From: Actinomycetota bacterium
GTDB lineage: Bacteria; Actinomycetota; Actinomycetes; Actinomycetales; Microbacteriaceae
Assembly (NCBI GenBank): GCA_009704945.1
Contig: WLDG01000004.1
Coordinates: forward strand, 6,974 to 70,973
DNA length: 64,000 nt
Direction: 5' to 3'
Made by a program: the position numbers and the translations under genes. Below the pieces are notes generated by a model. The model was given only the letters and a program-made list of their open reading frames with translations. It was not told where the DNA came from and did not search any database. This document shows, in pieces, positions 32,719 through 59,761 of this stretch (positions within the stretch are counted from its first letter, which is position 1; each line of letters starts with the position of its first letter).

Positions 32719-32860
32719 ATATTTCCCCCGAGTTGAGTAGGTTTTCTTTAGACTAGGGTGGCACACCTGACCGATATTTACTAGCTAATTGATTCAGCTG
32801 TTTATGGTCACTTGGGTAGTCGCTCAGTTAGGCTCTTTCTAGCAAGTAACTGGGGGTTCA

Positions 32861-35946: not shown

Positions 35947-35955
35947 GTGGTAGTA

Positions 35956-37500: not shown

Positions 37501-37502
37501 AC

Positions 37503-39074: not shown

Positions 39075-39114
39075 AGACCAATAAATGGCTAGCCTTTGGC
39101 TGTAAGGAAATTAA

Positions 39115-40830: not shown

Positions 40831-40855
40831 GCTCACAATCAATTAGATTTCAGGC

Positions 40856-42385: not shown

Positions 42386-42474
42386 TTTCCTTTGTGGCGG
42401 CAAAGTTGCTAAGACCATTTGATCTCAAATTGGAAGCTAGACTTTTCCGAACATCTTGATTGGGGCTCGAAGAA

Positions 42475-45840: not shown

Positions 45841-45983
45841 GGTCTGAGGCAAAAGGCTTGGTTTCTAATGCCTGACGATAAGAGGTAACTGGGGGATGAC
45901 CCCTTTTGTTACGGAAATCCCTGATTTTTAGGCAAAAAGCCCATATTTCAAGCAATTTTCCTTAATACACGGACAAACCGTAA

Positions 45984-45993
45984 TGTCCGGACA
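45984..45993. promoter_or_regulatory. Perfect palindrome TGTCCGGACA (candidate operator)
   Basis: Flanked by extra half-sites CGGACA (45970) and TGTCCG (45997); variants recur upstream of the other surface genes. Confidence 0.55.
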
Positions 45994-46001
45994 ATATGTC
46001 C

Positions 46002-46114
46002 GTTACCCTTTACCTGTAAGGGCTGGGCTATCTCCTGCTTGGTTGGTGGTAACTCGCTCTTGCGTCCTGCAGGTCCTATGCCTGTGGGGAAACCAAGAAA
46101 GAAAGACAAATTAC
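46002..46114 (+). promoter_or_regulatory. Conserved structured upstream/leader element, copy 1
   Basis: Shared with 49912-50021 and 53695-53803. CTTGGTT pairs with AACCAAG and encloses a GC hairpin. Confidence 0.7.
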
Positions 46115-49006
46115 ATGTCCAAAAACATGACTCGTAAGGGTCTTGCTGTTGGTACAACTTTTGCCCTAACTCTTGCAGGTTTGGTAGGCGTTGCCGCACC
46201 AGCTCATGCAACCACAGGCATCACAGTTGAGCCCTCAGCAGGTACTTCTTACAACATGATCTCGGGCGAGCAGTTCAACCTTCGCGTATTTGGCCAGTCC
46301 AACTACGCAGGTACCTTCTCAAACCTGAAGTGGGCCGTCACTAACGCCGGCGCCGCAACAGTTACCGTGAAGCAGCCAGATGGTTCTCCTGCCGCATCTG
46401 AGACTCCGGCAACTAACGTTGCAGACGGAAGTTTCAGCCCAGCTGGTAGCTCCAGCGCATCGTCTGCAACCAGCTTTGTGGTTACTCCAGCAAACATTGG
46501 TACCGCAGCGGGTTCAAACCTGCTGGGTGTATCTGTGCCTGCAGCTACTGCAGCCACCATTGAGGTTCGTGCGTTCATCGACCTCAACGGAAATGGTTCT
46601 TTCGACTCAGCTTCTGACCTAAGCGCAAATGTCGCGACAGTCACTTTCACAAAGCCAGCTGATCTAACGGCCACCACGACCATCACTTCTCCAACTGAGG
46701 GTGACACATCAATCGTGGCAAGCGTTTCTTTCAACAACATCAACAACGAGCAGGTACCAGCGGCAAACGTTGGAGCCTTCTTTACTAAGGGTGATGGAAG
46801 CACGCTGTACCCAACCGCAAGCGTAACCGCAACCGTGTTGGCCTCGAACGTTGCAACCTACACGGCCAGCAACAACTTCTTGGCTGGTCAGACTGTAGTC
46901 GTTGCAGGTCACTCGACCGCAACTTACAACGGCACCCTAACCATTGCAAGCGCTTCGGCGACTCAGTTCACCGTTGCAATCACTAACGCAAACATTGCTG
47001 CAGCTTCTGGTCTAACCGGAATCACTGCTACCAGTGCTGCGGCTAACTCGGTAAAGAGCAACTCAACTTGGTCAGCAACTGACAAGTTCAAGTTCACCAG
47101 CTCAACCGTTAGCGCTTTGGTGAAGGCAACCGGTGTTAAGGTTCAGCCTCTGTACAAGGTTTCTGGTTCACCAGCAAGCACTGACACAGTGGCAACCGCA
47201 GCAACCGCAGTTGTTGTAGCTCGCAAGGCTGCAACCATCGTTGGTGATGTTGTGGCAAACACCACAGGACGCGTAACCAACGCAGGTACTGCTGGTCAGA
47301 CCTTGCTTAACTCTTCCTTCCAGGCGAAGGTTGTAGTGAAGGATGGCGCAACCACTCCAGCTGGTGTGGGCGGCGCAGCGGTTACCGCGACAATCACTTC
47401 AACAGGCCTGCAGTCAACTGCACCTGCAAAGACCCTAACCGTCAACGGAACCACCTACAGCAGCTCTTCAGCTCTGCCAGGACAGGGATCAGTTGCCAAG
47501 TTGGCTCTAACCACCAATGCGTCAGGCGAGGCAGTGATTAACTTCACTTCCGCTGGCTACTCGGCTAACGACACCATCACTGTTGTCTTCTACACCGAGA
47601 ACCTAACCGCTTCGACTTTGACAATCACCCAGGTTGCTGCGTCCTACACCGCAACTGTTCGTCCATCATTCTTCGTAACCACTGACGGTACTGCTGTATC
47701 CGTACCAGTTGTGGTTTACGACCAGTTTGGTGGCGTACCAGCGGACAAGTACGACGTTCGCGCAACCTTTGACGCAAACAACAACGGATACTCCGCACAG
47801 GCAACCACTGCAGCAACCTCTGGTTCAAACGCAGTGACTGCTCTAGTTGGTGGCCGTGGAACCCTGTCGATTACCGACAACGGAACCGGTCTGGGTGTCA
47901 ACTCCTACGACGTAACTGTCCAGGAGCGTCTGGCTGGTAACAACTACGGATCAACTATCACTACAGCCGTTGAGGTCAACGTACACATTGTTGCCGCCGC
48001 AACCTTGGTTGCAGCGACAGTAACCTCAAACGGAACTCAGGACAGCACCACCAAGGTCTATGCAATCGCAGGCCCAGTGGCACTATCCCTAGTTACCCCA
48101 ACTGCCTACGACAGCGTGACTGTCCTAGGAGCCGCTCCAACCAGCTTCACCGGTGCACTAACCGCTCAGAACATCACTGGAACAGTTTCAACCGTTGCTA
48201 ACGCAACGACTGCAGCTGTTGTAGTACCTGGTGCGCTAGTAACCGTAAGCTCGCCTGGCATGCTGTTCCAGGATGGTTCAACCGGTCGCTACACCGTTGG
48301 ATCAATCACCGTCAGCGCTAACACCTCTGGTGTTTACAGCGTTAACGTTTACTCCAACAAGTCTGGAAAGCAGACCTTTGCAATTTCCTCTGGAGCCGCT
48401 TCAGCCACAACTACCGTTGTGTTTGCTGCAGCAGCTGCTACCACTGGAACTTCTTTGGTAATTGACGCACCAGACTACGTTCGTCCAGGCAGCACCTTGA
48501 CCATCAAGGGTCTTCTAAAGGACAAGTACGGAAACAACATTGACACCACCGCGGCTGACCGCATCAAGGTCAGCTACACCGGTCCTGGGCTACAGGTTGG
48601 ATCCACTCCAACTGCCTACACCGAAGGCGTTGCTCAGTTGGGCTACTTCCTAGGTTCAAATGACACGGGAACCATCTCCGTAACCTTCAGCTACAACTCT
48701 GACGGTACAGACGATGTCTTCACCAGCGACACTGACCTAACTGTCACCAAGACCATCACCATTGGCACTGCACCAGCAGCTGCCAAGGTTAACGTTGGTT
48801 CCTTCAACGGCAAGCTAGTTGTATACGCAAACGGATACAACGGCAAGAAGATCTCATGGAAGGTAGGCGGAAAGTGGGGCTCAGCAGTTGCTGCTAGCGA
48901 CACTGCACGCTTCGCCCGCGTAACACCTCGCAAGGGTGTAACCGTATCCGTACAGATCTACGTTGACGGTGTTCTAACACTAACTAAGTCTGTAGTTACC
49001 AAGTAA
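46115..49006 (+). CDS. S-layer-like large secreted Ala/Thr/Ser/Gly/Val-rich protein 1 (963 aa)
   Basis: Signal peptide MSKNMTRKGLA...AHA, beta-rich composition, C-terminal KVNVGSFNGKLVVYA...ISWKVGG.W...LTKSVVTK. Confidence 0.85.
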   Translation: MSKNMTRKGLAVGTTFALTLAGLVGVAAPAHATTGITVEPSAGTSYNMISGEQFNLRVFGQSNYAGTFSNLKWAVTNAGAATVTVKQPDGSPAASETPATNVADGSFSPAGSSSASSATSFVVTPANIGTAAGSNLLGVSVPAATAATIEVRAFIDLNGNGSFDSASDLSANVATVTFTKPADLTATTTITSPTEGDTSIVASVSFNNINNEQVPAANVGAFFTKGDGSTLYPTASVTATVLASNVATYTASNNFLAGQTVVVAGHSTATYNGTLTIASASATQFTVAITNANIAAASGLTGITATSAAANSVKSNSTWSATDKFKFTSSTVSALVKATGVKVQPLYKVSGSPASTDTVATAATAVVVARKAATIVGDVVANTTGRVTNAGTAGQTLLNSSFQAKVVVKDGATTPAGVGGAAVTATITSTGLQSTAPAKTLTVNGTTYSSSSALPGQGSVAKLALTTNASGEAVINFTSAGYSANDTITVVFYTENLTASTLTITQVAASYTATVRPSFFVTTDGTAVSVPVVVYDQFGGVPADKYDVRATFDANNNGYSAQATTAATSGSNAVTALVGGRGTLSITDNGTGLGVNSYDVTVQERLAGNNYGSTITTAVEVNVHIVAAATLVAATVTSNGTQDSTTKVYAIAGPVALSLVTPTAYDSVTVLGAAPTSFTGALTAQNITGTVSTVANATTAAVVVPGALVTVSSPGMLFQDGSTGRYTVGSITVSANTSGVYSVNVYSNKSGKQTFAISSGAASATTTVVFAAAAATTGTSLVIDAPDYVRPGSTLTIKGLLKDKYGNNIDTTAADRIKVSYTGPGLQVGSTPTAYTEGVAQLGYFLGSNDTGTISVTFSYNSDGTDDVFTSDTDLTVTKTITIGTAPAAAKVNVGSFNGKLVVYANGYNGKKISWKVGGKWGSAVAASDTARFARVTPRKGVTVSVQIYVDGVLTLTKSVVTK

Positions 49007-49020
49007 CTACTCGCTAAACC

Positions 49021-49053
49021 ACTAACCCCCCGGGTCCCCCTCGGGGGGTTAGT
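49021..49053. terminator. Terminator between convergent genes
   Basis: ACTAACCCCCCG...CGGGGGGTTAGT. Confidence 0.8.
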
Positions 49054-49056
49054 CAT

Positions 49057-49746
49057 TTAACTAACTTGTGCTCTGAGGATTCCTAGGTGGAGAGCTCGCT
49101 TCACTGCTTCATTTCTAGAGCCCACACCAAGAGCTCTGTAGATTTTCACGGTCTCTTGTCTTATGGAGCTTTCAGAGAGAATCATGTCTTGAGCAATCTC
49201 CGCATTGGTTTTACCAAAGCTCATTGCTTCCAGAATCTTTAGTTGGCGATCGGTAAGGGCATCAGGTGATGCATCGCCGTTTTTGCCATTAGAGCTAAAG
49301 CCATTGACTAATCCGGTGGAGCTGAGCCAAAGACCTAATACCTGGCCCATGGCCAGGTTGGCTTCTTTGGGAAACTCCGCCATCTTCTCTCTCTGGCAGA
49401 ACATCGCACTACCTAGGGGAGTGTCGCCCTTGAGCATTGGAATGGCATATAGATGCAGCTTGCTGCCCTGGTGTTGTGCTTCTTGGTGAGAAAGCCCATT
49501 GTTGTTGATTGCTTTAGCTAACAGGTTGTCTTCCCAGGTGGAGAAGACTTGATCGGCAGGTAGTGGGTTTACCCCATAACCGCCTAACTGAACTATCTGG
49601 CCTTTGTTGTCTAGCAGGTAGAGATAGCTACCTATTCCTTGACCAGTGTTTACCCCTGAGTGCACCAGCTTCTTACACAGCTCTGAAACTGTGGTACTTG
49701 ACGAGACCAGTTCAGTCCATTTCTGTAGCCAACCTAGATTTGGCAT
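49057..49746 (-). CDS. LuxR-family HTH regulator with GAF-like N-terminal domain (1)
   Basis: HTH LTDRQLKILEAMSFGKTNAEIA...SESSIRQETVKIYRALGV; no receiver domain. Start set at MPNLG. Confidence 0.85.
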   Translation of the reverse strand: MPNLGWLQKWTELVSSSTTVSELCKKLVHSGVNTGQGIGSYLYLLDNKGQIVQLGGYGVNPLPADQVFSTWEDNLLAKAINNNGLSHQEAQHQGSKLHLYAIPMLKGDTPLGSAMFCQREKMAEFPKEANLAMGQVLGLWLSSTGLVNGFSSNGKNGDASPDALTDRQLKILEAMSFGKTNAEIAQDMILSESSIRQETVKIYRALGVGSRNEAVKRALHLGILRAQVS

Positions 49747-49804
49747 AAATCCCCGTTCGTACAATCCCCAATGTCCGTTCATTAGAACAGTAAGTGAATT
49801 ATCA

Positions 49805-49812
49805 GGGGGGGG
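49805..49812. repeat. G8 homopolymer in the divergent luxR/surface-gene intergenic region
   Basis: ATCA-G8-CAGTCC. Confidence 0.8.
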
Positions 49813-49911
49813 CAGTCCTTTCTTAGAGGGACGCCTCTCATTGTCCGTACAACAGTTAGCTATGTCCTGTCTGTCCTAGTACGAAACTGATAACTATTTT
49901 CACCCCCGCTG

Positions 49912-50021
49912 GTTACCTATCTCTGTAAGAGTGCGCTATCTCCTGCTTGGTTGGTGGTATCTCGCTCTTTCAGCCTGCCCTCTTAAGGGGGCGGGTAAAC
50001 CAAGAAAGAAAGACAAATTAC
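49912..50021 (+). promoter_or_regulatory. Conserved structured upstream/leader element, copy 2
   Basis: CTTGGTT 49946-52 pairs with AACCAAG 49998-50004; inner hairpin GCCTGCCCTC-TTAA-GGGGGCGGGT. Confidence 0.7.
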
Positions 50022-52721
50022 ATGTCCAAAAACATGACTCGTAAGGGTCTTGCTGTTGGTGCAGGTCTAGGACTTGTCTCATCATTGCTGGTAGGTACTG
50101 CACCTGCTTTCGCAAACGAGACCCTAGCTCTGTCCCCAACTTCAGGTACTTCTTACAAGGTTCTCACTACTACCGACTTCGACTTAACTGTCGGATTTGC
50201 TGGTAACGAGAGCTCACAGGCTGTTGACACAGTCAAGTACCTAATCTCCAATCCATCAGGTGCCACAATGGCATTCGATGTGATTGCGAATGGTTCTGCT
50301 GCTGGCACCGTCTTTGACCGCGTGCCTGGCTCAACCACTGACGCTGCGGCTACCGCTACTTCTGTTGTTGTTGGAGACGGCACCGCAGACGTAATCGGAG
50401 CTCGAAGCGGAATCAATGTCTCCATTACTCCTGTCGAAGCAACAAGCGCCAACATCACTGTTCGGGCTTTCTTGGACATTAATGGCAATGACAGCATGGA
50501 TGATAACGAAGCTCGTTCACCGGCTCGCACGATTGAATTCATCGATCACGCGATTTGGACTGGTCGCGCCGTGCTTGACACCGCTGTCGTTGGTGGAACC
50601 ACCTTGTCGGCCTACGTTCTGCTTGACGGAATCAACTACCACCAGCTGGACTCAAACGACGTACAGGTTGAATTCTTTAGGGACAATGTCGCCATTGCTT
50701 CTCCTCCTGCCGGTGAAACTAGCCCTGCAGTGACAGGTGGCACGGCTACCGTTGCACAGAGAACCAACCCGAATATTGCGGTTTGGTCAAGTGCAGATGG
50801 TGAACTTCGAGCTACTCTTACACCAGATTCGAACACTGTTGTAGACGCCGTTATGGCAACTGTTGCTAACGTATCGACCTCTGTTTACTCAGCAAGAGTT
50901 CGTCTTTACGATGGAACTGCTTGGCAGGTAGTGGCAAACTCGACCAATGGAGTAACACCAACCTCTGGTCAGATTTCGGCTCTAGCTGCAATCACTGAGA
51001 CTGCAAGCGTATCTACTGATGGATCTGACAACATTCGCGTTGGAGCTGGAACATTTACTTCCAGAACTACCGCAACTGTTAACGCTGGATTCGCTCTAGC
51101 CGGTCAGGCAGTTACTTTCACCATCTCTGAAGCGAGCGCGAACTCAATCGCAACTGCAGCTTCTATTACCGCTGGTGGAAAGACTCTAACCAACTCAAAC
51201 ATTGCAAGCACTCAGAGAATCACAGTAGACGTGGTTACTAACGCTCTAGGCCGTGCAAGCGTTGATATCTCTTACACAGGTATCGCTGCTGGCAACACCT
51301 TCACCGTTACCGCATCTGCCTTGAACACAAATGCTGCAGTTACTACTTCGGCAGTAACTTACACAGCAGTTCTGTCTGACGTTGCTTTTGCACAGTCAAA
51401 CGTAAAGGCCGGATCACTACAGACCGTAGTAGGCCAGTCCTTCTCTGTGACTTGGAACATTGTGGACACCTTTGGTCAAGTACCGGTCGGAACATACAGA
51501 CTGGTATTGGGCGAGAACTCCTCTTCCGCAAACTATGCACAAACAATCAACTTCGTGAATGGTGCTGCAACGCTGACTCAGACTGAGAACAGCACTGCTG
51601 CAAACACCTACACACTAAGTGCGGCTGTTGAGCAGCAGAATGCAGATGGAAGCTGGGATGCTACGCCAAGTGCTGGAGATGCAGCCGTTGCAGCCAACGT
51701 CACAGTTCAGGCCTACACAGCTGACCCAACAGTAACAACCGTCACTGTTTCGGCTTCGGCTACTGGTATTGGTGCAGCTGCTGACTTGGCACTAGAACTC
51801 GACTCCACCTACTCAGGTGACAGAGATCTACTGCGTAACTCAGTTGCTTTCCCAACCCTGGTTGATGTGTCAACTCTTACCTACACAGTAAGAAGCAGCA
51901 CTGGAGAAGCCCTTGTTGGTGAGCCAATTACTGTCTCAGCTGCAGGCCTACAGTTCGCTGCAGAGTCTGACACCTGGTTCGGAGTAGGTTCCATCGCTGG
52001 AACTACGAACGCAAGCGGACAGTTCGTTGTAAAGGTCTACAGCAACCTTGCTGGTTCACAGACCGTTACTGCAACTGCTGGTGGAGTATCCAGAACTCAA
52101 GAGCTGGTATTCCAGCAGGCTAAGGACGACACTGGTTTCACACTAACCCTGTCAGCCCCTACCAACGCTCCAAAGGGAAGCACCTTCAAGGTGACTGCAA
52201 CTTTGAGAGATGAGTTTGGAAACCTAGTAACCACAAGCTCAACTGCAACCAACTTCAACGATGGAACAACTGCACCGACCTTCAACATGACCTACACCGG
52301 TCCTGGTCTGATTGTTGGCGCTCTTCCAACCGCGACTGTAAATGGTCTAGCTGAGTTCAGCGTTCTATTGGGAGCAAACGACACCGGCTCAATCTCTGTC
52401 ACAGCAAGCTATGACGCTGATGGAACTGGCACTGCCTCAGCAGCAGTGGCCGCCAGCGCGTCCGTAGCTGTTGGTTCAGCTCCTGTTTCCACCACTGGCA
52501 AGGTCAACGTTGGATCCTTCAACGGCAAGCTAGTTGTTTACGCAGCTAACTTGAATGGCGCACGTATCTCTTGGAAGGTCGGCGGAAACTGGGGAACTGG
52601 AGTTGCTTCAAGCAACTACAGCATCTTCAACCGTCCAACCCCACGAGCTGGTGCAACAGTATCTGTTGACATCTACGTCAATGGTGTGAAGACACTAACC
52701 AAGTCTGTAGTTACTCGATAA
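50022..52721 (+). CDS. S-layer-like large secreted protein 2 (899 aa)
   Basis: Same N-terminus (MSKNMTRKGLA) and C-terminal domain as copies 1 and 3. Confidence 0.85.
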   Translation: MSKNMTRKGLAVGAGLGLVSSLLVGTAPAFANETLALSPTSGTSYKVLTTTDFDLTVGFAGNESSQAVDTVKYLISNPSGATMAFDVIANGSAAGTVFDRVPGSTTDAAATATSVVVGDGTADVIGARSGINVSITPVEATSANITVRAFLDINGNDSMDDNEARSPARTIEFIDHAIWTGRAVLDTAVVGGTTLSAYVLLDGINYHQLDSNDVQVEFFRDNVAIASPPAGETSPAVTGGTATVAQRTNPNIAVWSSADGELRATLTPDSNTVVDAVMATVANVSTSVYSARVRLYDGTAWQVVANSTNGVTPTSGQISALAAITETASVSTDGSDNIRVGAGTFTSRTTATVNAGFALAGQAVTFTISEASANSIATAASITAGGKTLTNSNIASTQRITVDVVTNALGRASVDISYTGIAAGNTFTVTASALNTNAAVTTSAVTYTAVLSDVAFAQSNVKAGSLQTVVGQSFSVTWNIVDTFGQVPVGTYRLVLGENSSSANYAQTINFVNGAATLTQTENSTAANTYTLSAAVEQQNADGSWDATPSAGDAAVAANVTVQAYTADPTVTTVTVSASATGIGAAADLALELDSTYSGDRDLLRNSVAFPTLVDVSTLTYTVRSSTGEALVGEPITVSAAGLQFAAESDTWFGVGSIAGTTNASGQFVVKVYSNLAGSQTVTATAGGVSRTQELVFQQAKDDTGFTLTLSAPTNAPKGSTFKVTATLRDEFGNLVTTSSTATNFNDGTTAPTFNMTYTGPGLIVGALPTATVNGLAEFSVLLGANDTGSISVTASYDADGTGTASAAVAASASVAVGSAPVSTTGKVNVGSFNGKLVVYAANLNGARISWKVGGNWGTGVASSNYSIFNRPTPRAGATVSVDIYVNGVKTLTKSVVTR

Positions 52722-52737
52722 CTAACAAGCTAAAACC

Positions 52738-52769
52738 ACTAAACCCCCAGGGAAACCTGGGGGTTTAGT
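52738..52769. terminator. Terminator between convergent genes
   Basis: ACTAAACCCCCAGG-GAAA-CCTGGGGGTTTAGT. Confidence 0.85.
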
Positions 52770-52780
52770 CATTTAATGAT

Positions 52781-53482
52781 TTAGGCGACTTCTTCTGTGA
52801 AGACGGATTGAGGGAGTAGGCCGGTTGCTTTGGCCTTTGCTACAGCTTGCTGTCTGGAGCCAACTCCTAGGATTCTGAATATCTTTACGCTCTCTTGCTT
52901 GATTGAGCTCTCAGAGAGGATTAGCTGCTGAGCGATTTGGGCATTAGTTTCACCCCTTGCCATGCCAACCAGGATCTCGTATTGACGATCGGTTAGCTGG
53001 CCTTCCTCTGGCTGAGCAGTTTCTCTAAAGAGGTTCTTCAGTCCCAGTGATTCAAGATATATGGCACCGGCGTTAGCGGCAGCGATGGTTGCTTGTTCCG
53101 AGAAGGGAACGATCTTTTCTTTAGGATCAGTGAGAGAGGTTGATGCTCCAACTGGCACATCACCTTTAATAAGAGGTAATACCCAGTTGACCAGTTCTCT
53201 GCCCTGGACTTCTCTTTTGCCGTGCCAGACAGTTCTGCTGTTGATGGCTTGGGAGAGTGGGTGGTCTTCAAATAGAGATAGCGAAGCATTTGGATCAAAT
53301 GCTTCAAGACCATAGGAACCAACCAGTTGCAGGGTTCCTCGGTTAGATAGTGCATAGAGCTGTGTGCCGAGCATTCCTCTTCCCAGTTCTGGGTCATGAG
53401 TTAGTCTGCGGCAGTAATCATTTGGATTAGTTGCTTGCGCATAAATTTGATTGATTCTGGCAATTCTTGCTAGATCATCCAT
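52781..53482 (-). CDS. LuxR-family HTH regulator with GAF-like N-terminal domain (2)
   Basis: HTH LTDRQYEILVGMARGETNAQIA...SESSIKQESVKIFRILGV; paralog of the 49057 gene. RBS AAGGGGGG before MDDL. Confidence 0.85.
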   Translation of the reverse strand: MDDLARIARINQIYAQATNPNDYCRRLTHDPELGRGMLGTQLYALSNRGTLQLVGSYGLEAFDPNASLSLFEDHPLSQAINSRTVWHGKREVQGRELVNWVLPLIKGDVPVGASTSLTDPKEKIVPFSEQATIAAANAGAIYLESLGLKNLFRETAQPEEGQLTDRQYEILVGMARGETNAQIAQQLILSESSIKQESVKIFRILGVGSRQQAVAKAKATGLLPQSVFTEEVA

Positions 53483-53600
53483 GCAATTCCCCCCTTGCAT
53501 TTCATTTACTCTCCTTCTCTCCGTTGAGCCGGTGAGTTTATTGCTACGGACAGTGTTTGGTTTTCAGTTGTCCACATTGTTCGTACAACCAAAGTATCGA

Positions 53601-53609
53601 GGGGGGGGG
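53601..53609. repeat. G9 homopolymer in the divergent luxR/surface-gene intergenic region
   Basis: ATCGA-G9-TCC. Confidence 0.8.
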
Positions 53610-53694
53610 TCCTTTATTGAGTACATTTTGTAGAACATTTGGATTGACCGTTTAGACCTAGTCAATCCTTGATAACTAACTACCACCCCCTCTG

Positions 53695-53803
53695 GTTACC
53701 TAACCCTGTAAGAGTGCGCTATCTCCTGCTTGGTTGGTGGTACCTCGCTCTTGCAGCCTGCCCTCAAAGAGGGTGGGTAAACCAAGAAAGAAAGACAAAA
53801 TAC
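53695..53803 (+). promoter_or_regulatory. Conserved structured upstream/leader element, copy 3
   Basis: CTTGGTT 53729-35 pairs with AACCAAG 53780-86; inner hairpin GCCTGCCCTC-AAA-GAGGGTGGGT. Confidence 0.7.
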
Positions 53804-56800
53804 ATGTCCAAAAACATGACTCGTAAGGGTCTTGCATTGGGTGTTGGAGCAGTTCTTGTCGCATCAACCTTTGGCGTAGCGCCTGCTAACGCTAACGGTC
53901 TAGCTGACAAGTCATTTGTTTCCCTTACACCACGTGTAGGAACCGAGTACACAGTTCTAATGGATCAGTACTTTGACCTAAGCGCGAATGTTGCCGATAC
54001 CCTAGCCGGTACCAGCGGTCGCGACCTTAAGTTCCTAGTCTCTGACCCACAGAGCAGAGTGTTTGTTGACCAGTCGCAGACTGACAGCGTGACTAGTTAC
54101 TCTGCAGCCGGCAGCACTCTAGCTTCAATTGGTGTGTCATCTACCACCGCTACTTTGACGGTCAGTGGAACTGCTGTCGCGGCGGGAGAAAAGCTGTTTG
54201 TATACGGAATGACTGGCCAGTCCGGAACCGACTTCAACGGCAAGGTATTCACACGCACCGCTGACACCACTGCCACATTGACCGTCACTGCTGGCACTGC
54301 AAATGCGACTGTTACCGGTGCGGTTGCAGAAAAGACCAACGGCCTGAACACTCGAGCTGCAATTCTTGCAAATGGGTCTCTAGGTGATGCTGACTTGTTT
54401 GAGTCTGCAACAATTCAGGACCAGGCAGGCAAGACTATGACTGCTGGCCGTGCGTCGGATGGCACATTTGTTGTTGACACCAACACAAACGCTAATGCCA
54501 ACAACCGCCTATTGCGTCTAGTTGCAAACACCACGTCAACCTACTCAGTGACAGTCACTGCATGGGTTGACTCAAACAACGACGGTCTGATCAATGACAC
54601 CGAATACACCTCACCTGCACGAACTGTTACGTTCGTGAAGGCTGGAGATGTAACCGCTGTTACCACTCTTTCCCCAATTGTTGGTGACGAAAACCTCGTT
54701 GCAAACATCACAACCACTCCAGTATTGAACGGAAACCAGGTATTGGCTCAGGATGGCGACTTCCTGAACGCTGCCTTTACTCGTTCCCTTTCGACCTCAA
54801 CTGTTTACTCAGCTGTTGACCTGGCATCAACCACTCAGAGCTCAGCTTGGAACGACACAACCAAGACCTGGACTGTGACTGCTAGCTTGGACGCTGATGC
54901 AGCTGGTGAGAGAAACACTGCTGATGGAAGCGTTGTTACCGACTCATGGGCTGGTATTGCTGCCCCTACTGCGTCAGGCATAACTGCTGTTTCAGTTTCA
55001 ACCACAGGTCTCGTAACTGTGACTGATGCTGCACACGGCTTGAGAACTGGCGACAGAGTTACTGTTGTAATCGACGCAGCCGATACATCTGTTGCTATCG
55101 CAGGTGAATCAGTTGCAAGGACGGTTACTGCAACTGGACCAGACACGTTCACGTACCAGGTGTCAGAAACAACTGGCTTCCCAACGTCTACGGCAACAGA
55201 TTCTTCAGTTGGTGGCAGCACCGCCTGGACTCTTGCGACTTACACAGGCCCACAGGGTCTAGCTGACCGCGTTGGTGCTGAGACCTACTCAGCTCAGGCT
55301 GTCATCCAGACTGGTGCTTCAACCTGGACCGCTATTTCAACCAAAGTTGAGACTGGCGTAACTTCTGCTGCAACTTCAAGCGCCGAGGTTTCGACCAAGG
55401 CTTCGACAGCTGTACAGGGCAAGGTCTACGATGACCAATCTGGAACAAATGCAGCTCAGGTACTCACTGGTACTAAGACTGTTGAAGTTACCTTCACAGC
55501 TCTTGATGCCGATGGTGATGCTCTAGGCGCAGGCCGTCCAATCGCTGTAACCCTGACCAGATCAGGAACTGTGGACACAGCCCGTGTCAACGGCAAGACC
55601 GCTGACACTGTTCTAACTGGTGCAAATGGAACCGCAACCGTAACCATCACAGCTGTGAATGGTGCCAAGGACATGGATCTACGTGTTCAGGGTGTTGTTG
55701 AGAACCGTGCAACTGTTTACATTGATCTACAGTGGCGCGATGCGTCGTTCGGTCTAGTTGACCTAGCGACCACCGCAGCATCTCTAAACACATCAGAGAC
55801 CCGTGCAATGGTAGAGCTTGGTTCGTACACCATGAACTTGGCTGTTATGGACCAGTGGTACAACGCACCAGCTGCGGGCGCCTACCGCCTGAAGCTAACC
55901 GGTGAAGGTGTAGCTGCACAGTTCGTTGCTCTAAACAATGGACGTGCAAACGTAACCGTTACTGACACTGGCGTGTTTGGTACTCAAGTTGCGACCGTAA
56001 TCGACCTAGAGAAGATGAGCGGCACCACAGTTACTGGAACTACCACTTACACAATCACTGCAGACCTAGCTAAGACCTACAGGGTCGTTTTGGGTGCTAA
56101 CGGTACGACTCTGTATGGAACTGAGGCAGATCTTTCTGATGCAGTTGCAAAGAAGGCACTACTTGAGCTGGACAAGCGCGTACAGGCTGGAGAGACTCCT
56201 GCTTATGCAAACGATGTTCTAATCAACGGACAGGTTGCTAACAACGCAACATCTGCAGGTCGTCAGGGTGCATTGGTAACCATTACTGGTCCATCAAACA
56301 TCCTGTTCTCGAACGGTGAGAAGGCTGCTCGCGGATCCTTGACATTCTTGTCAGGTTCTAACGGTAACTTCGAAGTAAAGCTGTACTCAACTGCCGCTCA
56401 GACTGACACAGTGATTACTGTTACCTCCAACGGTGCATCTTCAACCACCAAGGTAACCTTCACTGGTATCGGTGTTGGTGAAGGTACCAAGCTGGATGTC
56501 ACTGCACCTGCTAATGTTCGCCCAGCTTCAACCTTCCAGGTGAAGGCCAAGCTGTCTGACGCATTCGGCAATGGTGTTGAGGCAACTGCTGGTCGCGTAA
56601 AGGTCACCTACACCGGTCCTGGAATTGTCTTTGGCACCTTGCCAGACAAGACCGACAAGAACGGTGAACTAATGTTCTCCGTGCTTCTAGGTTCAAACGA
56701 CACTGGCAACGTAGTTGTCACTGTGTCTTATGACCAGAACGGTGACGCTGACTACGTTGACGCTAAGGACCTAAACACCACCAAGACCATCACTGTTGGT

Positions 56801-57046
56801 ACTGGTGCTGCAGCAGGTGCTGGCAAGGTTAACGTTGGCTCCTTCAACGGCAAGCTAGTTGTTTACGCAGCTGGTTTGAACGGCGCACGTATCTCTTGGA
56901 AGGTCGGCGGAAACTGGGGATCTGCAGTTGCTTCAAGCAACTACAGCATCTTCAACCGTCCAACCCCACGAGCTGGTGTGACTGTATCGGTTGACATCTA
57001 CGTCAACGGTGTTTCGACACTAACCAAGTCTGTAGTTACTCGATAA
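53804..57046 (+). CDS. S-layer-like large secreted protein 3 (1080 aa)
   Basis: Same N- and C-termini as copies 1 and 2. Confidence 0.85.
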   Translation: MSKNMTRKGLALGVGAVLVASTFGVAPANANGLADKSFVSLTPRVGTEYTVLMDQYFDLSANVADTLAGTSGRDLKFLVSDPQSRVFVDQSQTDSVTSYSAAGSTLASIGVSSTTATLTVSGTAVAAGEKLFVYGMTGQSGTDFNGKVFTRTADTTATLTVTAGTANATVTGAVAEKTNGLNTRAAILANGSLGDADLFESATIQDQAGKTMTAGRASDGTFVVDTNTNANANNRLLRLVANTTSTYSVTVTAWVDSNNDGLINDTEYTSPARTVTFVKAGDVTAVTTLSPIVGDENLVANITTTPVLNGNQVLAQDGDFLNAAFTRSLSTSTVYSAVDLASTTQSSAWNDTTKTWTVTASLDADAAGERNTADGSVVTDSWAGIAAPTASGITAVSVSTTGLVTVTDAAHGLRTGDRVTVVIDAADTSVAIAGESVARTVTATGPDTFTYQVSETTGFPTSTATDSSVGGSTAWTLATYTGPQGLADRVGAETYSAQAVIQTGASTWTAISTKVETGVTSAATSSAEVSTKASTAVQGKVYDDQSGTNAAQVLTGTKTVEVTFTALDADGDALGAGRPIAVTLTRSGTVDTARVNGKTADTVLTGANGTATVTITAVNGAKDMDLRVQGVVENRATVYIDLQWRDASFGLVDLATTAASLNTSETRAMVELGSYTMNLAVMDQWYNAPAAGAYRLKLTGEGVAAQFVALNNGRANVTVTDTGVFGTQVATVIDLEKMSGTTVTGTTTYTITADLAKTYRVVLGANGTTLYGTEADLSDAVAKKALLELDKRVQAGETPAYANDVLINGQVANNATSAGRQGALVTITGPSNILFSNGEKAARGSLTFLSGSNGNFEVKLYSTAAQTDTVITVTSNGASSTTKVTFTGIGVGEGTKLDVTAPANVRPASTFQVKAKLSDAFGNGVEATAGRVKVTYTGPGIVFGTLPDKTDKNGELMFSVLLGSNDTGNVVVTVSYDQNGDADYVDAKDLNTTKTITVGTGAAAGAGKVNVGSFNGKLVVYAAGLNGARISWKVGGNWGSAVASSNYSIFNRPTPRAGVTVSVDIYVNGVSTLTKSVVTR

Positions 57047-57060
57047 CTAAAGATCAAACT

Positions 57061-57092
57061 ACTAAGCCCCCAGGGAAACCTGGGGGCTTAGT
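57061..57092 (+). terminator. Terminator hairpin after surface gene 3
   Basis: ACTAAGCCCCCAGG-GAAA-CCTGGGGGCTTAGT. Confidence 0.85.
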
Positions 57093-57220
57093 CATTTGAG
57101 TGGATACTCTTTCGAATTCCTATAGTGCTTCTAACTGACTTTCGGTTTCCCGAAGGTTAGTTTCGGGTCTATGTCTTTGAGCAGGGGACAAAGGGCTCTT
57201 GTTGTACGATTGACCGTACA

Positions 57221-59761
57221 ATGCCCAAACATTCCTCAGTAGGTAGAAAACGGCTGTCCTTCAGGCTAGCTGCACCATTTGCTGCACTCTCTTTGGTTGG
57301 TGTTGGGCTGGTGCCTATCGCTATTGCGAGTTCCACAATTCAGGTTTCTGTCTTTAGTTATCCGGGGCTGACTGAAGGCAACATGTCTTGCTCTGATGAA
57401 GTAGACAATCTAGAGGAAATCATTTTAGGGATTCCTGGCTACACGGTTGATCGCACCATCACAACTTTGGCTGATACGGGTGGCACCACACTTCTTCAAA
57501 GACTCAATGCCAGCAGGTTCTTTTTCGTACCTGACATGGAAAGTGCATTCAACGTGAATAGCACATCTGACTTCCCTTCAACGGCTGTCACTGCTTTTCA
57601 AACATGGTTGAACGATGGTGGAGTGCTGGTCATGACTGGTACACATGGCACCAAGGACATTGATTTTCTAAACAAGATCACAAGTTGGGGCCTTGCATCA
57701 GCGACAGGCCGGAACGGGGCAACGAGAAATGATGCCAATGCTTCTGGAACTCCGTTTGGCGATGCTTCGCTAGCGAGCACTACTCTGGGAGTGCCCAGTG
57801 CAACGGAGTCTGTCAACAAAAACACTGCACCAGGAAGTGCTAACTTCAAGGCGATGTGGGGTGTTGATAACCAGGCGGCAGTCGCAACGATGACCTACGG
57901 CCGAGGCACAATCATCTACCTTGGATGGGATTTCTTTAACTCCGGTCTCAATGAGGGAACAAATGCGCCTTGTCCTGCAAATAGTGACAACTGGGTCCAA
58001 AAGATTGTTCCCGCGGCTCTTGAATACGCTGCACAGCTTTCCGCTTCCGGACTTACCAATCCAACCAGTACTGGTGGAACACTGAATTATTCATTTGCTA
58101 ACAATGGAACCAGCTACTACGTTATTGTGCCTCGCGCCGCAACCGCACCCACTGCTGCTCAAGTTAAGGCTGGAGTTGATTACGGCGCAGTCACTGTGAC
58201 TCGAGCGGGCAATTCTCCTCAGAATGCCAACACGGAGATCAACTTCTCTATTACTGGTCTAACACCGGCAACCGATTACACGGCCTATATGGTGACTGAA
58301 TGGAACAGTCCAGCAGAGCTCTCAGCTGTAGAGACTCTAGAGTTTTCGACTGCACCTGGCACCCCCACGGTAAGTTCCGTAAGCGCTGGTAATACTGAAG
58401 TGTCTGTCGCGATTGCCCCATTTGGGACAGAGACTAACTTCGAATACAGCATTGATGGCGGTTCAAACTGGGTTGCCAGATCCCCATCGGCAGTCACTAC
58501 TCCTTGGGTGATTACTGGGCTTACCAACGGACAGTCCTACAGCTTCACATTTAGATCTTCATTCAGAACACTGCGAAGTTCTGCAACTTCGGCCTCATCT
58601 GTAACACCTGTTGGGGTTCCAGGTGCACCAACCAGCGTTTCAGGCACGGCCACAGGATCAAGCATTGCACTTAGCTGGACTGCACCAGCCAGTAATGGAG
58701 GAAGTGCAATAACTGGCTACAAGATTGAAGTATCTACTGACAATGGCTCTACCTGGACCACAGTCACGGCCAATACTGGAAACACTTCGACCAGTGCCAC
58801 CATTAGTCAGCTTTCGACTGGGAACTACCGTTATCGAGTCAGTGCCCTCAACACAAACGGAAGCTCTCTAGCATCAACTGCCTCGACTGCTGTGTCAGTT
58901 ACCGCCAGTGCTCCAGGGCTGCCGACCAATTTGGGCATTTCTCACAACGGTTTTGGTTCTGCAACCGTCAGTTGGGATCCTCCCACCAGCGATGGAGGTA
59001 GCGCCGTTACCGGTTACGTTGTGGAGTATGAAGTAGGCGGCACTTGGCAGACCTTGACACCAAGTGGGCGTGTAGCCACGGTTTCTGGAGTTTGGCCGAA
59101 TCAAGGATGGTCGTTCCGCGTGGCAGCAACGAACACGGTTGGAACTGGCAGTTTTGCCGTTCAAACTCACACACCACCCCCGCCATTCACTGGCCCCATC
59201 ATCACCAAGTTCTCTTCAAATGAGATTCCGGCTGGTTCCGGAACTAGTGTCAATTTGGAAGGTCTTCGACTGGGTCAAATCACAGAATTCTGGATCGGCA
59301 ATCAAAAACTCTCTCACACGACTGACCCATCCGGACGTGTCACCCTTCAACTACCAGCATTGGTTGCTGGAACACATAACTTGCGGATTATCTACTCTGG
59401 CGGTGCAGTCCTAATTCACCAAGATGCCTTCAGAGTCTCAAGGCCTAATGCTGGGGAAGCTCGCCCTCTGCGCTTCACAAGTTTTGCTGGAGACAGTTTC
59501 CGGTTAACTCCGGCGGCCCGTGCAGTAATTTCCGATGTGCTTAGCGGTTATTCAGGGATCAAGAAGATTACCTGCATAGGTTCAACCTCAGGGAACCGGG
59601 TCACAGCCTCTGACCAAAGACTTGCTTTTAGGCGGGCTCAAGAAGCCTGTAATCATGCAAGACAATTTGCTCCCACCGCTGAAATTGAGTTACGAGCAAA
59701 TCCAGCCGCCGGAATAGGCCCGCGCTTTAGAGGCGTGACTCTCCAAATCATCTCTGGTTAA
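57221..59761 (+). CDS. Secreted fibronectin type III repeat protein with IPT-like and OmpA-like C-terminal domains
   Basis: Signal/TM segment; FN3 motifs (LSWTAPASNGGSAITGY...YRVSALN); C-terminal F.GDS..L...CIGSTS...LAFRRAQ...R.V. Confidence 0.82.
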   Translation: MPKHSSVGRKRLSFRLAAPFAALSLVGVGLVPIAIASSTIQVSVFSYPGLTEGNMSCSDEVDNLEEIILGIPGYTVDRTITTLADTGGTTLLQRLNASRFFFVPDMESAFNVNSTSDFPSTAVTAFQTWLNDGGVLVMTGTHGTKDIDFLNKITSWGLASATGRNGATRNDANASGTPFGDASLASTTLGVPSATESVNKNTAPGSANFKAMWGVDNQAAVATMTYGRGTIIYLGWDFFNSGLNEGTNAPCPANSDNWVQKIVPAALEYAAQLSASGLTNPTSTGGTLNYSFANNGTSYYVIVPRAATAPTAAQVKAGVDYGAVTVTRAGNSPQNANTEINFSITGLTPATDYTAYMVTEWNSPAELSAVETLEFSTAPGTPTVSSVSAGNTEVSVAIAPFGTETNFEYSIDGGSNWVARSPSAVTTPWVITGLTNGQSYSFTFRSSFRTLRSSATSASSVTPVGVPGAPTSVSGTATGSSIALSWTAPASNGGSAITGYKIEVSTDNGSTWTTVTANTGNTSTSATISQLSTGNYRYRVSALNTNGSSLASTASTAVSVTASAPGLPTNLGISHNGFGSATVSWDPPTSDGGSAVTGYVVEYEVGGTWQTLTPSGRVATVSGVWPNQGWSFRVAATNTVGTGSFAVQTHTPPPPFTGPIITKFSSNEIPAGSGTSVNLEGLRLGQITEFWIGNQKLSHTTDPSGRVTLQLPALVAGTHNLRIIYSGGAVLIHQDAFRVSRPNAGEARPLRFTSFAGDSFRLTPAARAVISDVLSGYSGIKKITCIGSTSGNRVTASDQRLAFRRAQEACNHARQFAPTAEIELRANPAAGIGPRFRGVTLQIISG

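What the first reader, a model, noticed from the sequence alone, without database searches (positions are those of the whole stretch)
45960..57097. Candidate surface-coat switching locus: three S-layer-like cassettes with constant ends and variable cores, interleaved with dedicated GAF-LuxR regulators
Seen: the order is slp1(+) luxR1(-) slp2(+) luxR2(-) slp3(+). All three slp genes share about 110 nt of upstream sequence, the first 10 codons (MSKNMTRKGL), a ~75-aa C-terminal domain and a related terminator, while the 800-1000-aa middles are highly divergent. Each luxR is divergent from the next slp, and both intergenic regions carry a shared palindrome and a poly-G tract. Known: S-layer variation in Campylobacter fetus and lactobacilli uses conserved flanks and silent cassettes. 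Inference: here every copy keeps its own leader, and two have an adjacent one-component regulator. That suggests regulated or mutually exclusive expression of alternative coats (phage or grazer evasion), with flank-mediated swapping of cores. I do not know of such a system in planktonic Microbacteriaceae. The S-layer identity rests on size, composition and signal peptide only.
Basis: partly seen in the sequence, partly recalled or inferred. Interest (0 to 1): 0.88.

Follow-up and report, generated by a model that had tools for sequence, protein, structure and literature searches.

The report
Alternative surface-coat genes with dedicated regulators
A small planktonic actinobacterium (Aquiluna) carries three interchangeable genes for a probable cell-surface coat protein, each with the same control leader and wall-anchor end but a different exposed middle, plus two dedicated regulators, a layout suited to changing the coat seen by phages and grazers.

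Summary
Three tandem genes (963, 899 and 1080 aa) share a ~100-nt leader, 11 identical first residues, a ~75-aa C-terminal domain and a 14-bp terminator hairpin. Their cores are only 26-31% identical.

- **Proteins:** Sec-secreted, Cys-free, all-beta Ig-like arrays. The family is found only in Aquiluna-like Microbacteriaceae. Codon usage is of the high-expression type.
- **Constant ends:** these are family-wide functional modules. The leader is a covariation-supported two-hairpin RNA. The C-terminal domain also sits on a subtilase, so it is probably a wall anchor.
- **Homology arms:** in a relative with 95% identical flanks and a 99% identical C-terminal domain, the slp1 core is replaced (27% identity).
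- **Regulators:** a GAF-like sensor joined to a LuxR HTH, found full-length only in multi-slp loci.
- **Promoters:** all 17 luxR-adjacent slp genes have a defective -10 (TAYCTA). Of 23 others, 21 have TAnnnT, and 14 carry a TGTCCGGACA operator in the spacer.
- **G-tracts:** the only two G/C runs of 8 or more in the 1.14-Mb genome lie before the luxR genes. Their length varies (C8-C12) among relatives.

S-layer identity, exclusive expression and phase variation remain untested. I rate this a new variant of known S-layer variation systems.

The parts
45980..46009 (+). slp1 promoter-like site (class A): -35-like GTAATG (45980-45985), 18-nt spacer holding the palindrome TGTCCGGACA (45984-45993) and GGACAATATGTCC (45989-46001), then -10 TACCCT (46004-46009)
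   Evidence: Coordinates. The only perfect TGTCCGGACA in the 64 kb lies here. The same design recurs in 14 of 23 luxR-less slp promoters of relatives. The promoter assignment is inferred from conservation; the E. coli-consensus scan did not call it.
46015..46114 (+). slp1 5' leader: two hairpins followed by an unpaired AAACCAAGAAAGAAAGA ribosome-binding stretch
   Evidence: Folds at -35.5 kcal/mol, z -2.2. Structure supported across 33 distinct leaders: 91% of cells paired against 37-52% in slid controls, covariation 0.467 against 0.14 or less. No Rfam family matches.
46115..49006 (+). slp1, 963 aa: Sec signal peptide (AHA|T), Cys-free Thr/Ala/Val/Ser-rich beta protein, C-terminal domain at 48779-49003
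   Evidence: Codon usage falls in the 1st percentile of the main axis, alongside GroEL, L1, RpoA, rhodopsin and transporter binding proteins. At least 811 50%-identity clusters are related to it.
49021..49053 (.). 14-bp hairpin terminator between the convergent slp1 and luxR1
   Evidence: -27.6 kcal/mol, z -5.3.
49057..49746 (-). luxR1: N-terminal GAF-like sensor plus C-terminal LuxR/GerE HTH (the ORF could start at 49782; homologues start at MPNLG/MSDID)
   Evidence: Pfam GerE E 7.5e-10. Alignment with homologues. 37% identical to luxR2.
49798..49919 (.). luxR1-slp2 control region. On the luxR strand a GATAAT -10-like hexamer (49798-49803) abuts the G8/C8 tract (49805-49812). Boxes TTGTCCGTACAA (49841-49852) and ATGTCCTGTCTGTCC (49862-49876). 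slp2 -35-like ATAACT (49890-49895) and defective -10 TACCTA (49914-49919).
49924..50021 (+). slp2 5' leader (two hairpins)
   Evidence: -34.6 kcal/mol, z -2.6.
50022..52721 (+). slp2, 899 aa; C-terminal domain at 52494-52718
   Evidence: The core type is rare: 13 hits besides the window's own protein, the closest 64% identical. Weak Big_1 hit. Codon usage in the 4th percentile.
52738..52769 (.). 14-bp hairpin terminator between the convergent slp2 and luxR2
   Evidence: z -6.2.
52781..53482 (-). luxR2: GAF-like sensor plus LuxR HTH (ORF runs to 53500)
   Evidence: Pfam GerE E 6e-11. AF2 model pLDDT 88.5. Foldseek: over the full length it resembles CviR/RhlR/TraR/SdiA; the N-terminal domain resembles GAF domains, TM about 0.6.
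53577..53702 (.). luxR2-slp3 control region. Box TTGTTCGTACAA (53577-53588). On the luxR strand a GATACT -10-like hexamer (53593-53598) abuts the G9/C9 tract (53601-53609). slp3 -35-like TAACTA (53673-53678) and defective -10 TACCTA (53697-53702).
   Evidence: The orthologous tract is C8, C9, C10, C11 or C12 in relatives whose flanks are conserved.
53707..53803 (+). slp3 5' leader (two hairpins)
   Evidence: -33.1 kcal/mol, z -2.4.
53804..57046 (+). slp3, 1080 aa; C-terminal domain at 56819-57043
   Evidence: AF2 model pLDDT 85.4, pTM 0.67, all-beta. Matches are Ig-like arrays: invasin/intimin, MG domains, SbsB, the N. maritimus S-layer. Codon usage in the 2nd percentile.
57061..57092 (.). 14-bp hairpin terminator after slp3
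   Evidence: -34 kcal/mol, z -8.7.

Best explanation
This is a hypervariable coat locus of an Aquiluna-like planktonic actinobacterium. It encodes three alternative, heavily expressed, Sec-secreted proteins built of Ig-like beta-sandwich domains, most likely subunits of the S-layer seen on this lineage.

Each gene is a complete expression unit:
- a promoter;
- a ~100-nt leader whose 5'-terminal hairpin and second hairpin probably stabilise the mRNA and leave an A-rich ribosome-binding stretch open;
- a conserved signal peptide;
- a variable exposed core;
- a conserved ~75-aa C-terminal beta-sandwich, shared with other exoproteins such as a subtilase, that probably anchors the protein to the cell wall;
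- a strong terminator.

Because these functional ends are conserved, they also act as homology arms. Cores are replaced by homologous recombination between lineages, and the ends are homogenised between paralogues.

Choice among copies is probably transcriptional. slp1 has a consensus-type -10 with a TGTCCGGACA operator inside the promoter spacer, so it would be the default gene and repressible. slp2 and slp3 have a defective -10 and upstream boxes, and each faces a divergent one-component regulator (GAF-like sensor plus LuxR HTH) that would activate it. Hypermutable G-tracts in the luxR promoter regions may make regulator expression variable.

Shown: the anatomy, conservation, covariation, folds, mosaicism, promoter dichotomy and tract polymorphism. 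Inferred: lattice formation, wall binding, transcription starts, activation and repression, and switching.
For: - **Anatomy:**
- **Lineage restriction:** the family was found in only 4 of 101 sampled Microbacteriaceae genera, all with 1.2-1.7-Mb genomes. It comprises at least 811 50%-identity clusters.
- **Family-wide ends:** the signal peptide and leader are conserved throughout the family.
- **Leader structure:** 91% of cells paired against 37-52% in slid controls, and 0 of 500 shuffles reach the observed covariation.
- **Anchor domain:** the C-terminal domain also occurs on an S8 subtilase, E 3e-17.
- **Protein character:** Cys-free, pI 4.4-6.7, rich in T/A/V/S. The all-beta model has pTM 0.67.
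- **Expression proxy:** slp1-3 lie in the 1st-4th percentile of the main codon-usage axis, beside GroEL, L1, RpoA, NusG, rhodopsin and transporter binding proteins.
- **Literature:** an S-layer on Luna-cluster strains is linked to grazing resistance (PMC7669872 citing Tarao 2009).
- **Core replacement:** L060 against the window shows 95.4% identity over 715 nt up to about 40 nt into slp1, then no DNA match for about 2.6 kb, then 89% identity from about 260 nt before the stop. Its C-terminal domain is 99% identical and its core 27%.
- **Discordant histories:** slp2 and slp3 are 93% identical in the C-terminal domain and 26% in the core, whereas proteins with slp2-type cores (62-65% identical) have C-terminal domains only 40-49% identical. 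Third-codon positions of the slp2/slp3 C-terminal domain are 88% identical.
- **Regulators:** fold. Full-length copies were found only in multi-slp loci.
- **Promoter classes:** 17 of 17 against 21 of 23. Box positions are conserved across species.
- **G-tracts:** unique in the genome and length-polymorphic.
Against:
- Fold matches are generic Ig-like arrays that fit adhesins as well as S-layers.
- No known S-layer anchoring family (SLH and the like) is present.
- The family was not found in 10 of 24 sampled genomes of the genus, including one that is 99% complete, so the coat is not universal.
- The promoters are inferred from conservation only, and the sigma-70 consensus scan did not call them.
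- High-expression codon usage in all three genes fits co-expression as well as alternation.
- The tract-length differences are between lineages 5-8% apart, not shown within one population, and homopolymer lengths can be mis-assembled.
Confidence: 0.5

Rival explanations
1. The three proteins are non-lattice surface proteins (Ig-like adhesins or binding proteins for particles, algae or polymers). They are expressed according to environmental cues sensed by the GAF-LuxR regulators. Variability reflects ligand diversity or phage pressure, not S-layer variation.
For: The best structural matches include invasin, intimin and adhesin Ig arrays, with a weak Big_1 hit. JGI auto-annotation calls some homologues 'trimeric autotransporter adhesin'. 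Ten of 24 sampled genomes of the genus show no homologue.
Against: High-expression codon usage comparable to GroEL and transporter binding proteins. A compact model with pTM 0.67 rather than beads on a string. A stabilising leader and strong terminator typical of very abundant proteins. An S-layer has been reported on this lineage. An anchor module shared with a secreted protease recalls the S-layer-associated protein families of Firmicutes.
Confidence: 0.25
2. All three proteins are made together and form a composite or layered coat. The LuxR regulators only tune overall level, so there is no alternation.
For: All three genes are intact, each has a full leader, and all have high-expression codon usage.
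Against: The strict promoter dichotomy: a consensus -10 with an operator in the spacer, against a defective -10 with upstream boxes and a divergent regulator. Copy number varies from 1 to 3 or more among relatives. Cores at one position are exchanged freely, which is hard to reconcile with a fixed hetero-assembly.
Confidence: 0.12
3. Programmed DNA rearrangement of the Campylobacter fetus or Lactobacillus type: one expression site, silent cassettes, and inversion or site-specific recombination.
For: Conserved 5' and 3' ends, and homogenised 3' ends of slp2 and slp3.
Against: Every copy has its own promoter-like site, leader, start codon and terminator, and all lie on the same strand. No recombinase gene lies beside the locus: the neighbours are IndA, PfkB, an FN3/TIG protein and a dehydrogenase. 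The conserved ends are family-wide functional modules.
Confidence: 0.03
4. The luxR genes are only neighbours. They regulate themselves or unrelated genes, and the TGTCC/GGACA boxes bind a different factor.
For: No binding or expression data exist. At up to 2 mismatches the palindrome is not enriched window-wide (17 found, 25 expected).
Against: The perfect and 1-mismatch copies lie only in slp control regions. Box positions are conserved across species. Full-length regulators were found only in multi-slp loci, always divergent from an slp. There is a perfect association with the defective -10 class.
Confidence: 0.1

Closest known systems
Clostridioides difficile S-layer cassette (slpA and the CWB2 cell-wall-protein family)
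   Same: A hypervariable exposed part is joined to a conserved wall-anchoring module. That module is shared with other secreted surface proteins, including a protease. Whole variable segments are exchanged between lineages by recombination. The S-layer protein is a phage receptor (PMC10100898, PMC8881574; cassette recombination from my own knowledge of Dingle et al. 2013).
   Different: C. difficile has one slpA per genome, whereas here there are up to three complete tandem genes. The anchor here is an unannotated ~75-aa C-terminal beta-sandwich, not CWB2. There are dedicated divergent regulators and a conserved structured leader. The host is a free-living, streamlined actinobacterium.
Bacillus anthracis sap-eag tandem S-layer genes
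   Same: Adjacent paralogous S-layer genes share a constant anchoring domain and have different crystallisation domains. Each has its own promoter, and they are expressed alternatively under regulatory control. EA1 and Sap are the main components and are differentially expressed (PMC2654142); the developmental switch and the PagR/Sap control are from my own knowledge of Mignot et al. 2002.
   Different: The anchor there is an N-terminal SLH domain. The regulators (sigma factors, PagR, the S-layer proteins themselves) are not divergent GAF-LuxR genes. There are no homopolymer tracts, and no strain-to-strain core replacement on this scale.
Campylobacter fetus sap and Lactobacillus acidophilus slpA/slpB variation
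   Same: A family of S-layer gene copies with conserved ends and variable middles, used to change the surface antigen (own knowledge).
   Different: Those systems use a single promoter and DNA inversion with silent, promoterless cassettes. Here all copies are complete expression units on one strand, with no invertase nearby.
Promoter homopolymer phase variation (Bordetella fim, Neisseria opc/porA) and mycobacterial homopolymer switches (glpK)
   Same: G/C tracts lie next to a -10-like hexamer in the luxR promoter regions. They are unique in the genome and length-polymorphic among relatives. Comparison systems are from my own knowledge.
   Different: The tract would act on a regulator gene rather than on the surface gene itself. 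ON/OFF switching has not been shown here.
LuxR-type ligand-sensing regulators (TraR, CviR, RhlR, SdiA)
   Same: The same two-domain architecture in the predicted fold, a PAS/GAF-like ligand-binding domain plus a GerE HTH. They are expected to bind palindromic boxes as dimers.
   Different: No Autoind_bind Pfam match, only 12-18% identity, and an unknown ligand. The genes sit inside a surface-protein locus.

Membership tests
S-layer protein (functional class) | Secreted via an N-terminal signal peptide | tested here: met
   A basic n-region, a hydrophobic core and an AxA site (AHA|T, AFA|N, ANA|N) can be read from the sequences. The motif is conserved in over 100 homologues. No dedicated predictor was run.
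S-layer protein (functional class) | Non-covalent cell-wall anchoring module, typically shared with other surface proteins | tested here: inconclusive
   The conserved ~75-aa C-terminal beta-sandwich also occurs on an S8 subtilase and other exoproteins. Wall binding itself is not testable here. There is no Pfam or PDB sequence match.
S-layer protein (functional class) | Self-assembly into a two-dimensional lattice covering the cell | not testable with these tools
   Needs EM or cryo-ET, or in-vitro recrystallisation.
S-layer protein (functional class) | Among the most abundant cellular proteins | tested here: inconclusive
   Proxy only: codon usage in the 1st-4th percentile alongside GroEL, L1, RpoA, rhodopsin and binding proteins, plus a structured leader and strong terminators. 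No RNA or protein data.
SLH-domain S-layer proteins (PF00395) | SLH repeats | tested here: not met
   No SLH hit at E up to 0.1.
LuxR/GerE HTH regulators (PF00196) | C-terminal GerE-type helix-turn-helix | tested here: met
   E 7.5e-10 and 6e-11, above the gathering score; 35 of 35 homologues match.
GAF domain | GAF sequence profile or GAF fold in the N-terminal ~150 aa | tested here: inconclusive
   Sequence profile not met: 1 of 35 members matches GAF_2, at E 0.17. Fold: the pLDDT 88.5 model matches GAF domains 3ci6, 1vhm and 2vjw at TM 0.58-0.61, and also the related ligand domains of LuxR-type receptors.
AHL-type LuxR quorum-sensing receptors (Autoind_bind PF03472) | Autoinducer-binding domain profile and conserved AHL-contact residues | tested here: inconclusive
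   No Pfam hit. There is full-length fold resemblance to CviR, TraR and RhlR, E 1e-7. Contact residues were not examined.
Inversion-type S-layer variation (C. fetus sap) | A single promoter on an invertible segment with promoterless silent cassettes | tested here: not met
   All three copies have their own promoter-like site, leader, ATG and terminator, and lie on the same strand.
Contingency (phase-variable) locus | A hypermutable simple repeat placed in a promoter or ORF | tested here: met
   G8 and G9 are the only G/C runs of 8 or more in 1.14 Mb, against 24 expected. Both abut -10-like hexamers on the luxR strand.
Contingency (phase-variable) locus | Repeat-length polymorphism with conserved flanks | tested here: met
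   C8, C9, C10 and C11 occur in four contigs encoding the identical LuxR protein; C9 and C12 occur in others. The contigs are 92-95% identical, so this is variation between lineages, not clonal variation.
Contingency (phase-variable) locus | Reversible ON/OFF expression within a clone | not testable with these tools
   Needs deep sequencing of clonal cultures and reporter assays.
Known RNA families (Rfam 15) | A match of the leader to a curated covariance model | tested here: not met
   The only hit is a sub-threshold His_leader match over the slp3 terminator, E 0.55.

The most novel reading that the evidence does not exclude
Length changes of the poly-G tracts in the luxR promoters switch the GAF-LuxR activators ON or OFF stochastically. 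An active regulator turns on its adjacent coat gene and shuts off the default slp1 through the operator in its promoter spacer. A clonal population of a genome-streamlined free-living bacterioplankter would then display mutually exclusive S-layer lattices as bet-hedging against phages and grazers. Recombination between the constant leader and anchor ends imports new cores from the population's pool of over 800 types.
Probability: 0.15. Interest if true: 0.85.

Novelty: new variant of a known kind. Interest (0 to 1): 0.68.

Why it matters
Luna-cluster/Aquiluna actinobacteria are abundant in fresh, brackish and coastal waters. Their resistance to flagellate grazing has been attributed to an S-layer whose gene I could not find named in the searchable literature. 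This locus gives a concrete candidate gene family, a candidate new wall-anchor domain, a new leader RNA motif and a plausible regulatory circuit.

It also shows directly that the exposed part is swapped between near-identical genomes. That is the 'constant-diversity' behaviour proposed for phage-prey dynamics in streamlined plankton. Each step is testable in available isolates such as Aquiluna sp. Uisw_065 and IMCC13023.

Tried and rejected
- **Sequencing runs:** No RNA or DNA read evidence could be obtained and read laying was not used.
- **Self-association:** Complex prediction with three copies of slp3 residues 781-1080 gave no verdict (score 0.00). This is not evidence either way.
- **Rfam:** no family for the leader.
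- **Pfam on the slp proteins:** only sub-threshold GEVED and Big_1 hits.
- **C-terminal domain:** nothing in the PDB sequence search. The ESM Atlas gave only weak Ig-like leads, score below 0.8.
- **Fold searches of the slp3 model:** Foldseek and VIA gave generic Ig-like arrays, including alpha-2-macroglobulin MG domains, GH2 accessory domains, invasin/intimin, SbsB and the N. maritimus S-layer. These do not discriminate S-layer from adhesin.
- **Sigma-70 consensus scan:** it called no promoter at the conserved sites.
- **P1 pairing:** an initial idea that CTTGGTT pairs with AACCAAG was not the structure favoured by RNAalifold. Both segments are invariant, so the pairing cannot be tested by covariation.
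- **Palindrome enrichment:** at up to 2 mismatches it is not enriched window-wide (17 against 25 expected). Only the location of the best copies is informative.
- **Tarao et al. 2009:** the paper is not held and is cited second-hand.
- **EF-Tu motif search:** used to define a highly expressed gene set, it found nothing in this incomplete MAG. A codon-usage PCA with Pfam naming of the extreme genes was used instead.
- **The search for related loci:** with the slp alignment it returned only 5 loci. The leader DNA pattern was the better probe.

Full report
**What is there.** The window is contig C31 of a 1.14-Mb, 86%-complete genome with about 50% GC. The nearest named relatives are Aquiluna (Microbacteriaceae) genomes and MAGs. 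Between PfkB (44961-45788) and an FN3/TIG surface protein (57221-59761) lie five genes:
- slp1(+) 46115-49006
- luxR1(-) 49057-49746
- slp2(+) 50022-52721
- luxR2(-) 52781-53482
- slp3(+) 53804-57046

The three slp genes share a leader of about 100 nt (85-92% identical), 33-36 of the first 36 coding nt, the first 11 residues, a C-terminal domain (CTD) of about 75 aa, and a 14-bp hairpin terminator. The cores are 26-31% identical in protein and at background level in DNA.

**What the proteins are.**
- Mature Slp1-3 are Cys-free, rich in Thr/Ala/Val/Ser/Gly, with pI 4.4-6.7.
- Pfam gives only sub-threshold Big_1 and GEVED hits.
- An AlphaFold2 model of Slp3 built from 89 homologues is confident (pLDDT 85, pTM 0.67) and entirely beta.
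- Foldseek and VIA-align match Ig-like arrays of many kinds: invasin/intimin, macroglobulin MG domains, GH2 accessory domains, SbsB and the Nitrosopumilus S-layer. TM-scores are about 0.1 and Z is at most 11.6, so the fold says 'Ig-like surface array', not specifically S-layer.
- The family is large but confined to one lineage. There are at least 811 clusters at 50% identity. Among 201 Microbacteriaceae genomes it appears only in 4 of 101 genera, all with 1.2-1.7-Mb genomes.
- On the main axis of codon usage (778 genes), slp1, slp3 and slp2 fall in the 1st, 2nd and 4th percentile. The genes at that extreme are GroEL, ribosomal protein L1, RpoA, NusG, ribonucleotide reductase, rhodopsin and five transporter binding proteins, that is, the highly expressed set.
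- An S-layer on Luna-cluster strains, whose removal increases grazing, is reported in the literature (Tarao et al. 2009, as cited in PMC7669872). I found no paper naming an S-layer gene in Microbacteriaceae, Aquiluna or Rhodoluna.

I therefore regard 'S-layer subunit' as the most likely identity, but it is unproven.

**The constant ends are functional modules.** The motif M[ST]KN[MT]TRKGLA is conserved in over 100 homologues from metagenomes. The leader core CTCCTGCTTGGTTGG...AAACCAAGAA was found in 27 stretches of the species-level genome collection. All are Aquiluna, Microbacteriaceae or unclassified Actinomycetota MAGs, and in all but one of the 35 distinct leaders an slp-like ORF follows directly.

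Thirty-three distinct leaders support a two-hairpin structure. Cells are 91% paired, against 37-52% when partners are slid. Fifteen of 24 pairs change on both sides, and the covariation score is 0.467 against 0.14 or less. The first hairpin begins at the predicted 5' end, and the A-rich ribosome-binding stretch is unpaired. This layout is typical of stabilised, heavily translated mRNAs (inference). No Rfam family matches.

The CTD also terminates an S8 subtilase elsewhere in the genome (E 3e-17) and other exoproteins in relatives. It is therefore a general surface-anchoring module, analogous in role to SLH or CWB2 domains. It has no Pfam or PDB sequence match.

**The ends also serve as homology arms.**
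- Relative L060 matches the window at 95.4% identity over 715 nt, running from within PfkB through the leader to about 40 nt into slp1. There is then no DNA similarity for about 2.6 kb, and identity resumes at 89% from about 260 nt before the stop codon. Its CTD is 99% identical to Slp1's, but the core is 27% identical.
- A second relative, L009, has flanks 84-90% identical, yet the proteins at corresponding positions are only 35-40% identical.
- CTDs follow the genome: slp2 and slp3 are 93% identical in the CTD, with 88% identity at third-codon positions. Cores follow types that cross lineages: slp2-type cores 62-65% identical carry CTDs only 40-49% identical. The best core relative of slp3 (67-69%) is not its best CTD relative.
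- Copy number and content of the island vary. Relatives have one slp without luxR, or slp-luxR-slp, or three slp with two or three luxR. One has a split third copy, and one has two slp without an intervening luxR.

It does not show programmed switching.

**The regulators.** Both have a GerE HTH. Pfam does not detect GAF. The model (pLDDT 88.5) matches LuxR-type ligand receptors over its full length (CviR, RhlR, TraR, SdiA; E about 1e-7). Its N-terminal domain matches GAF domains (TM 0.58-0.61). The recognition helices of LuxR1 and LuxR2 are nearly identical while the sensor domains differ (37% identity overall). Full-length homologues occur only in the slp locus of this genome and of two complete two-slp genomes. 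None was found in three single-slp genomes, which are 55-76% complete.

**Promoter logic (inferred from conservation).** All leaders are preceded by a conserved GTAAYN element, an 18-nt spacer and a -10-like hexamer. I classified slp genes independently, by whether a luxR HTH is encoded divergently within 1.3 kb.
- All 17 luxR-adjacent genes have TA(C/T)CTA, which lacks the conserved final T.
- Of 23 others, 21 have TAnnnT.
- Fourteen of those 23, including slp1, carry TCCGGACA...GTCCG half-sites inside the spacer.
- In luxR-adjacent genes the boxes (TGTCCGnACA and TGTCC) sit at conserved positions about 47 and 27 nt upstream of the -35-like element.

The only perfect TGTCCGGACA in 64 kb overlaps the slp1 -35/spacer, and the only 1-mismatch copy lies before slp2. 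The simplest reading is a default, repressible slp1 and activator-dependent slp2 and slp3. These genomes are related, so the counts are not independent. The E. coli-consensus scan does not call these sites.

**G-tracts.** G8 and G9 are the only G/C runs of 8 or more in the genome, against about 24 expected from composition. On the luxR strand each abuts a -10-like hexamer (GATAAT, GATACT). In four contigs that encode an identical LuxR protein the tract is C8, C9, C10 or C11, with conserved flanks. Elsewhere it is C9 or C12. Those contigs are 92-95% identical, so this shows lability between lineages, not phase variation within a clone.

**Comparison and verdict.** In function the locus resembles two known systems. 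The C. difficile S-layer cassette has a variable exposed part, a conserved anchor shared with other wall proteins, recombinational exchange, and a phage-receptor role (PMC10100898, PMC8881574). The B. anthracis sap-eag pair consists of tandem, alternatively expressed S-layer genes (PMC2654142; details from my own knowledge). This locus is not a member of the SLH or CWB2 families and is not an inversion system.

New here are the protein family as an S-layer candidate, the anchor domain, the leader RNA, the divergent GAF-LuxR regulators with two promoter classes, and the regulator-linked homopolymer tracts. I rate it a new variant of a known kind, interest 0.68. Confidence in the composite best explanation is 0.5, because lattice formation, expression pattern and regulator action could not be tested.

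Noticed in passing
G000:C18:6125-7417 (locus L007 436-1728): An S8 subtilase of 430 aa ends in the same ~75-aa C-terminal domain as the Slp proteins (44% identical). It lies next to glycosyltransferase-like genes. In single-slp relatives this subtilase, a wall-polysaccharide gene cluster and the slp gene are neighbours.
   Followed up: partly
window 57203-59761: The 846-aa FN3/TIG surface protein just downstream has TGTAC/GTACA half-sites directly before its start codon (TTGTACGATTGACCGTACA). In relative L060 the corresponding gene is preceded by a third luxR. It may belong to the same regulon.
   Followed up: partly
window 31435-44040: An array of paralogous secreted proteins ending in a basic two-cysteine tail (for example ...CPSGFKKR) fills about 12.6 kb. 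Relatives L009 and L062 instead have a single alpha-amylase gene between the rhodopsin region and IndA. This is a second variable surface-protein island adjoining the slp locus.
   Followed up: partly
L060 3214-6717 (-): The third slp copy of this relative is split into two ORFs of 559 and 566 aa, the N-terminal half with the leader and the C-terminal half with the C-terminal domain. This is either a pseudogene or an assembly error.
   Followed up: no
whole genome G000: Homopolymeric G/C runs are strongly avoided: 2 runs of 8 or more observed against about 24 expected from base composition.
   Followed up: yes
L062 8699-10120 (-); L023 5367-6839; L024 5170-6612; L025 6500-7945; L027 10734-12158: A ~475-490-aa protein with an acidic N-terminus lies directly next to slp or luxR in several relatives. 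Only the L062/L063 copy carries Pfam Sigma70_r2/r4 hits. The other four are grouped with it by N-terminal similarity I saw by eye, so it is probably a principal sigma factor, but this is unchecked.
   Followed up: no
window 29941-30714 (-): A rhodopsin gene (PF01036) shows codon usage among the most 'highly expressed' in the genome.
   Followed up: no
window 56994-57095: A sub-threshold Rfam His_leader hit (27 bits against a gathering score of 49) coincides with the slp3 terminator hairpin and is spurious.
   Followed up: yes
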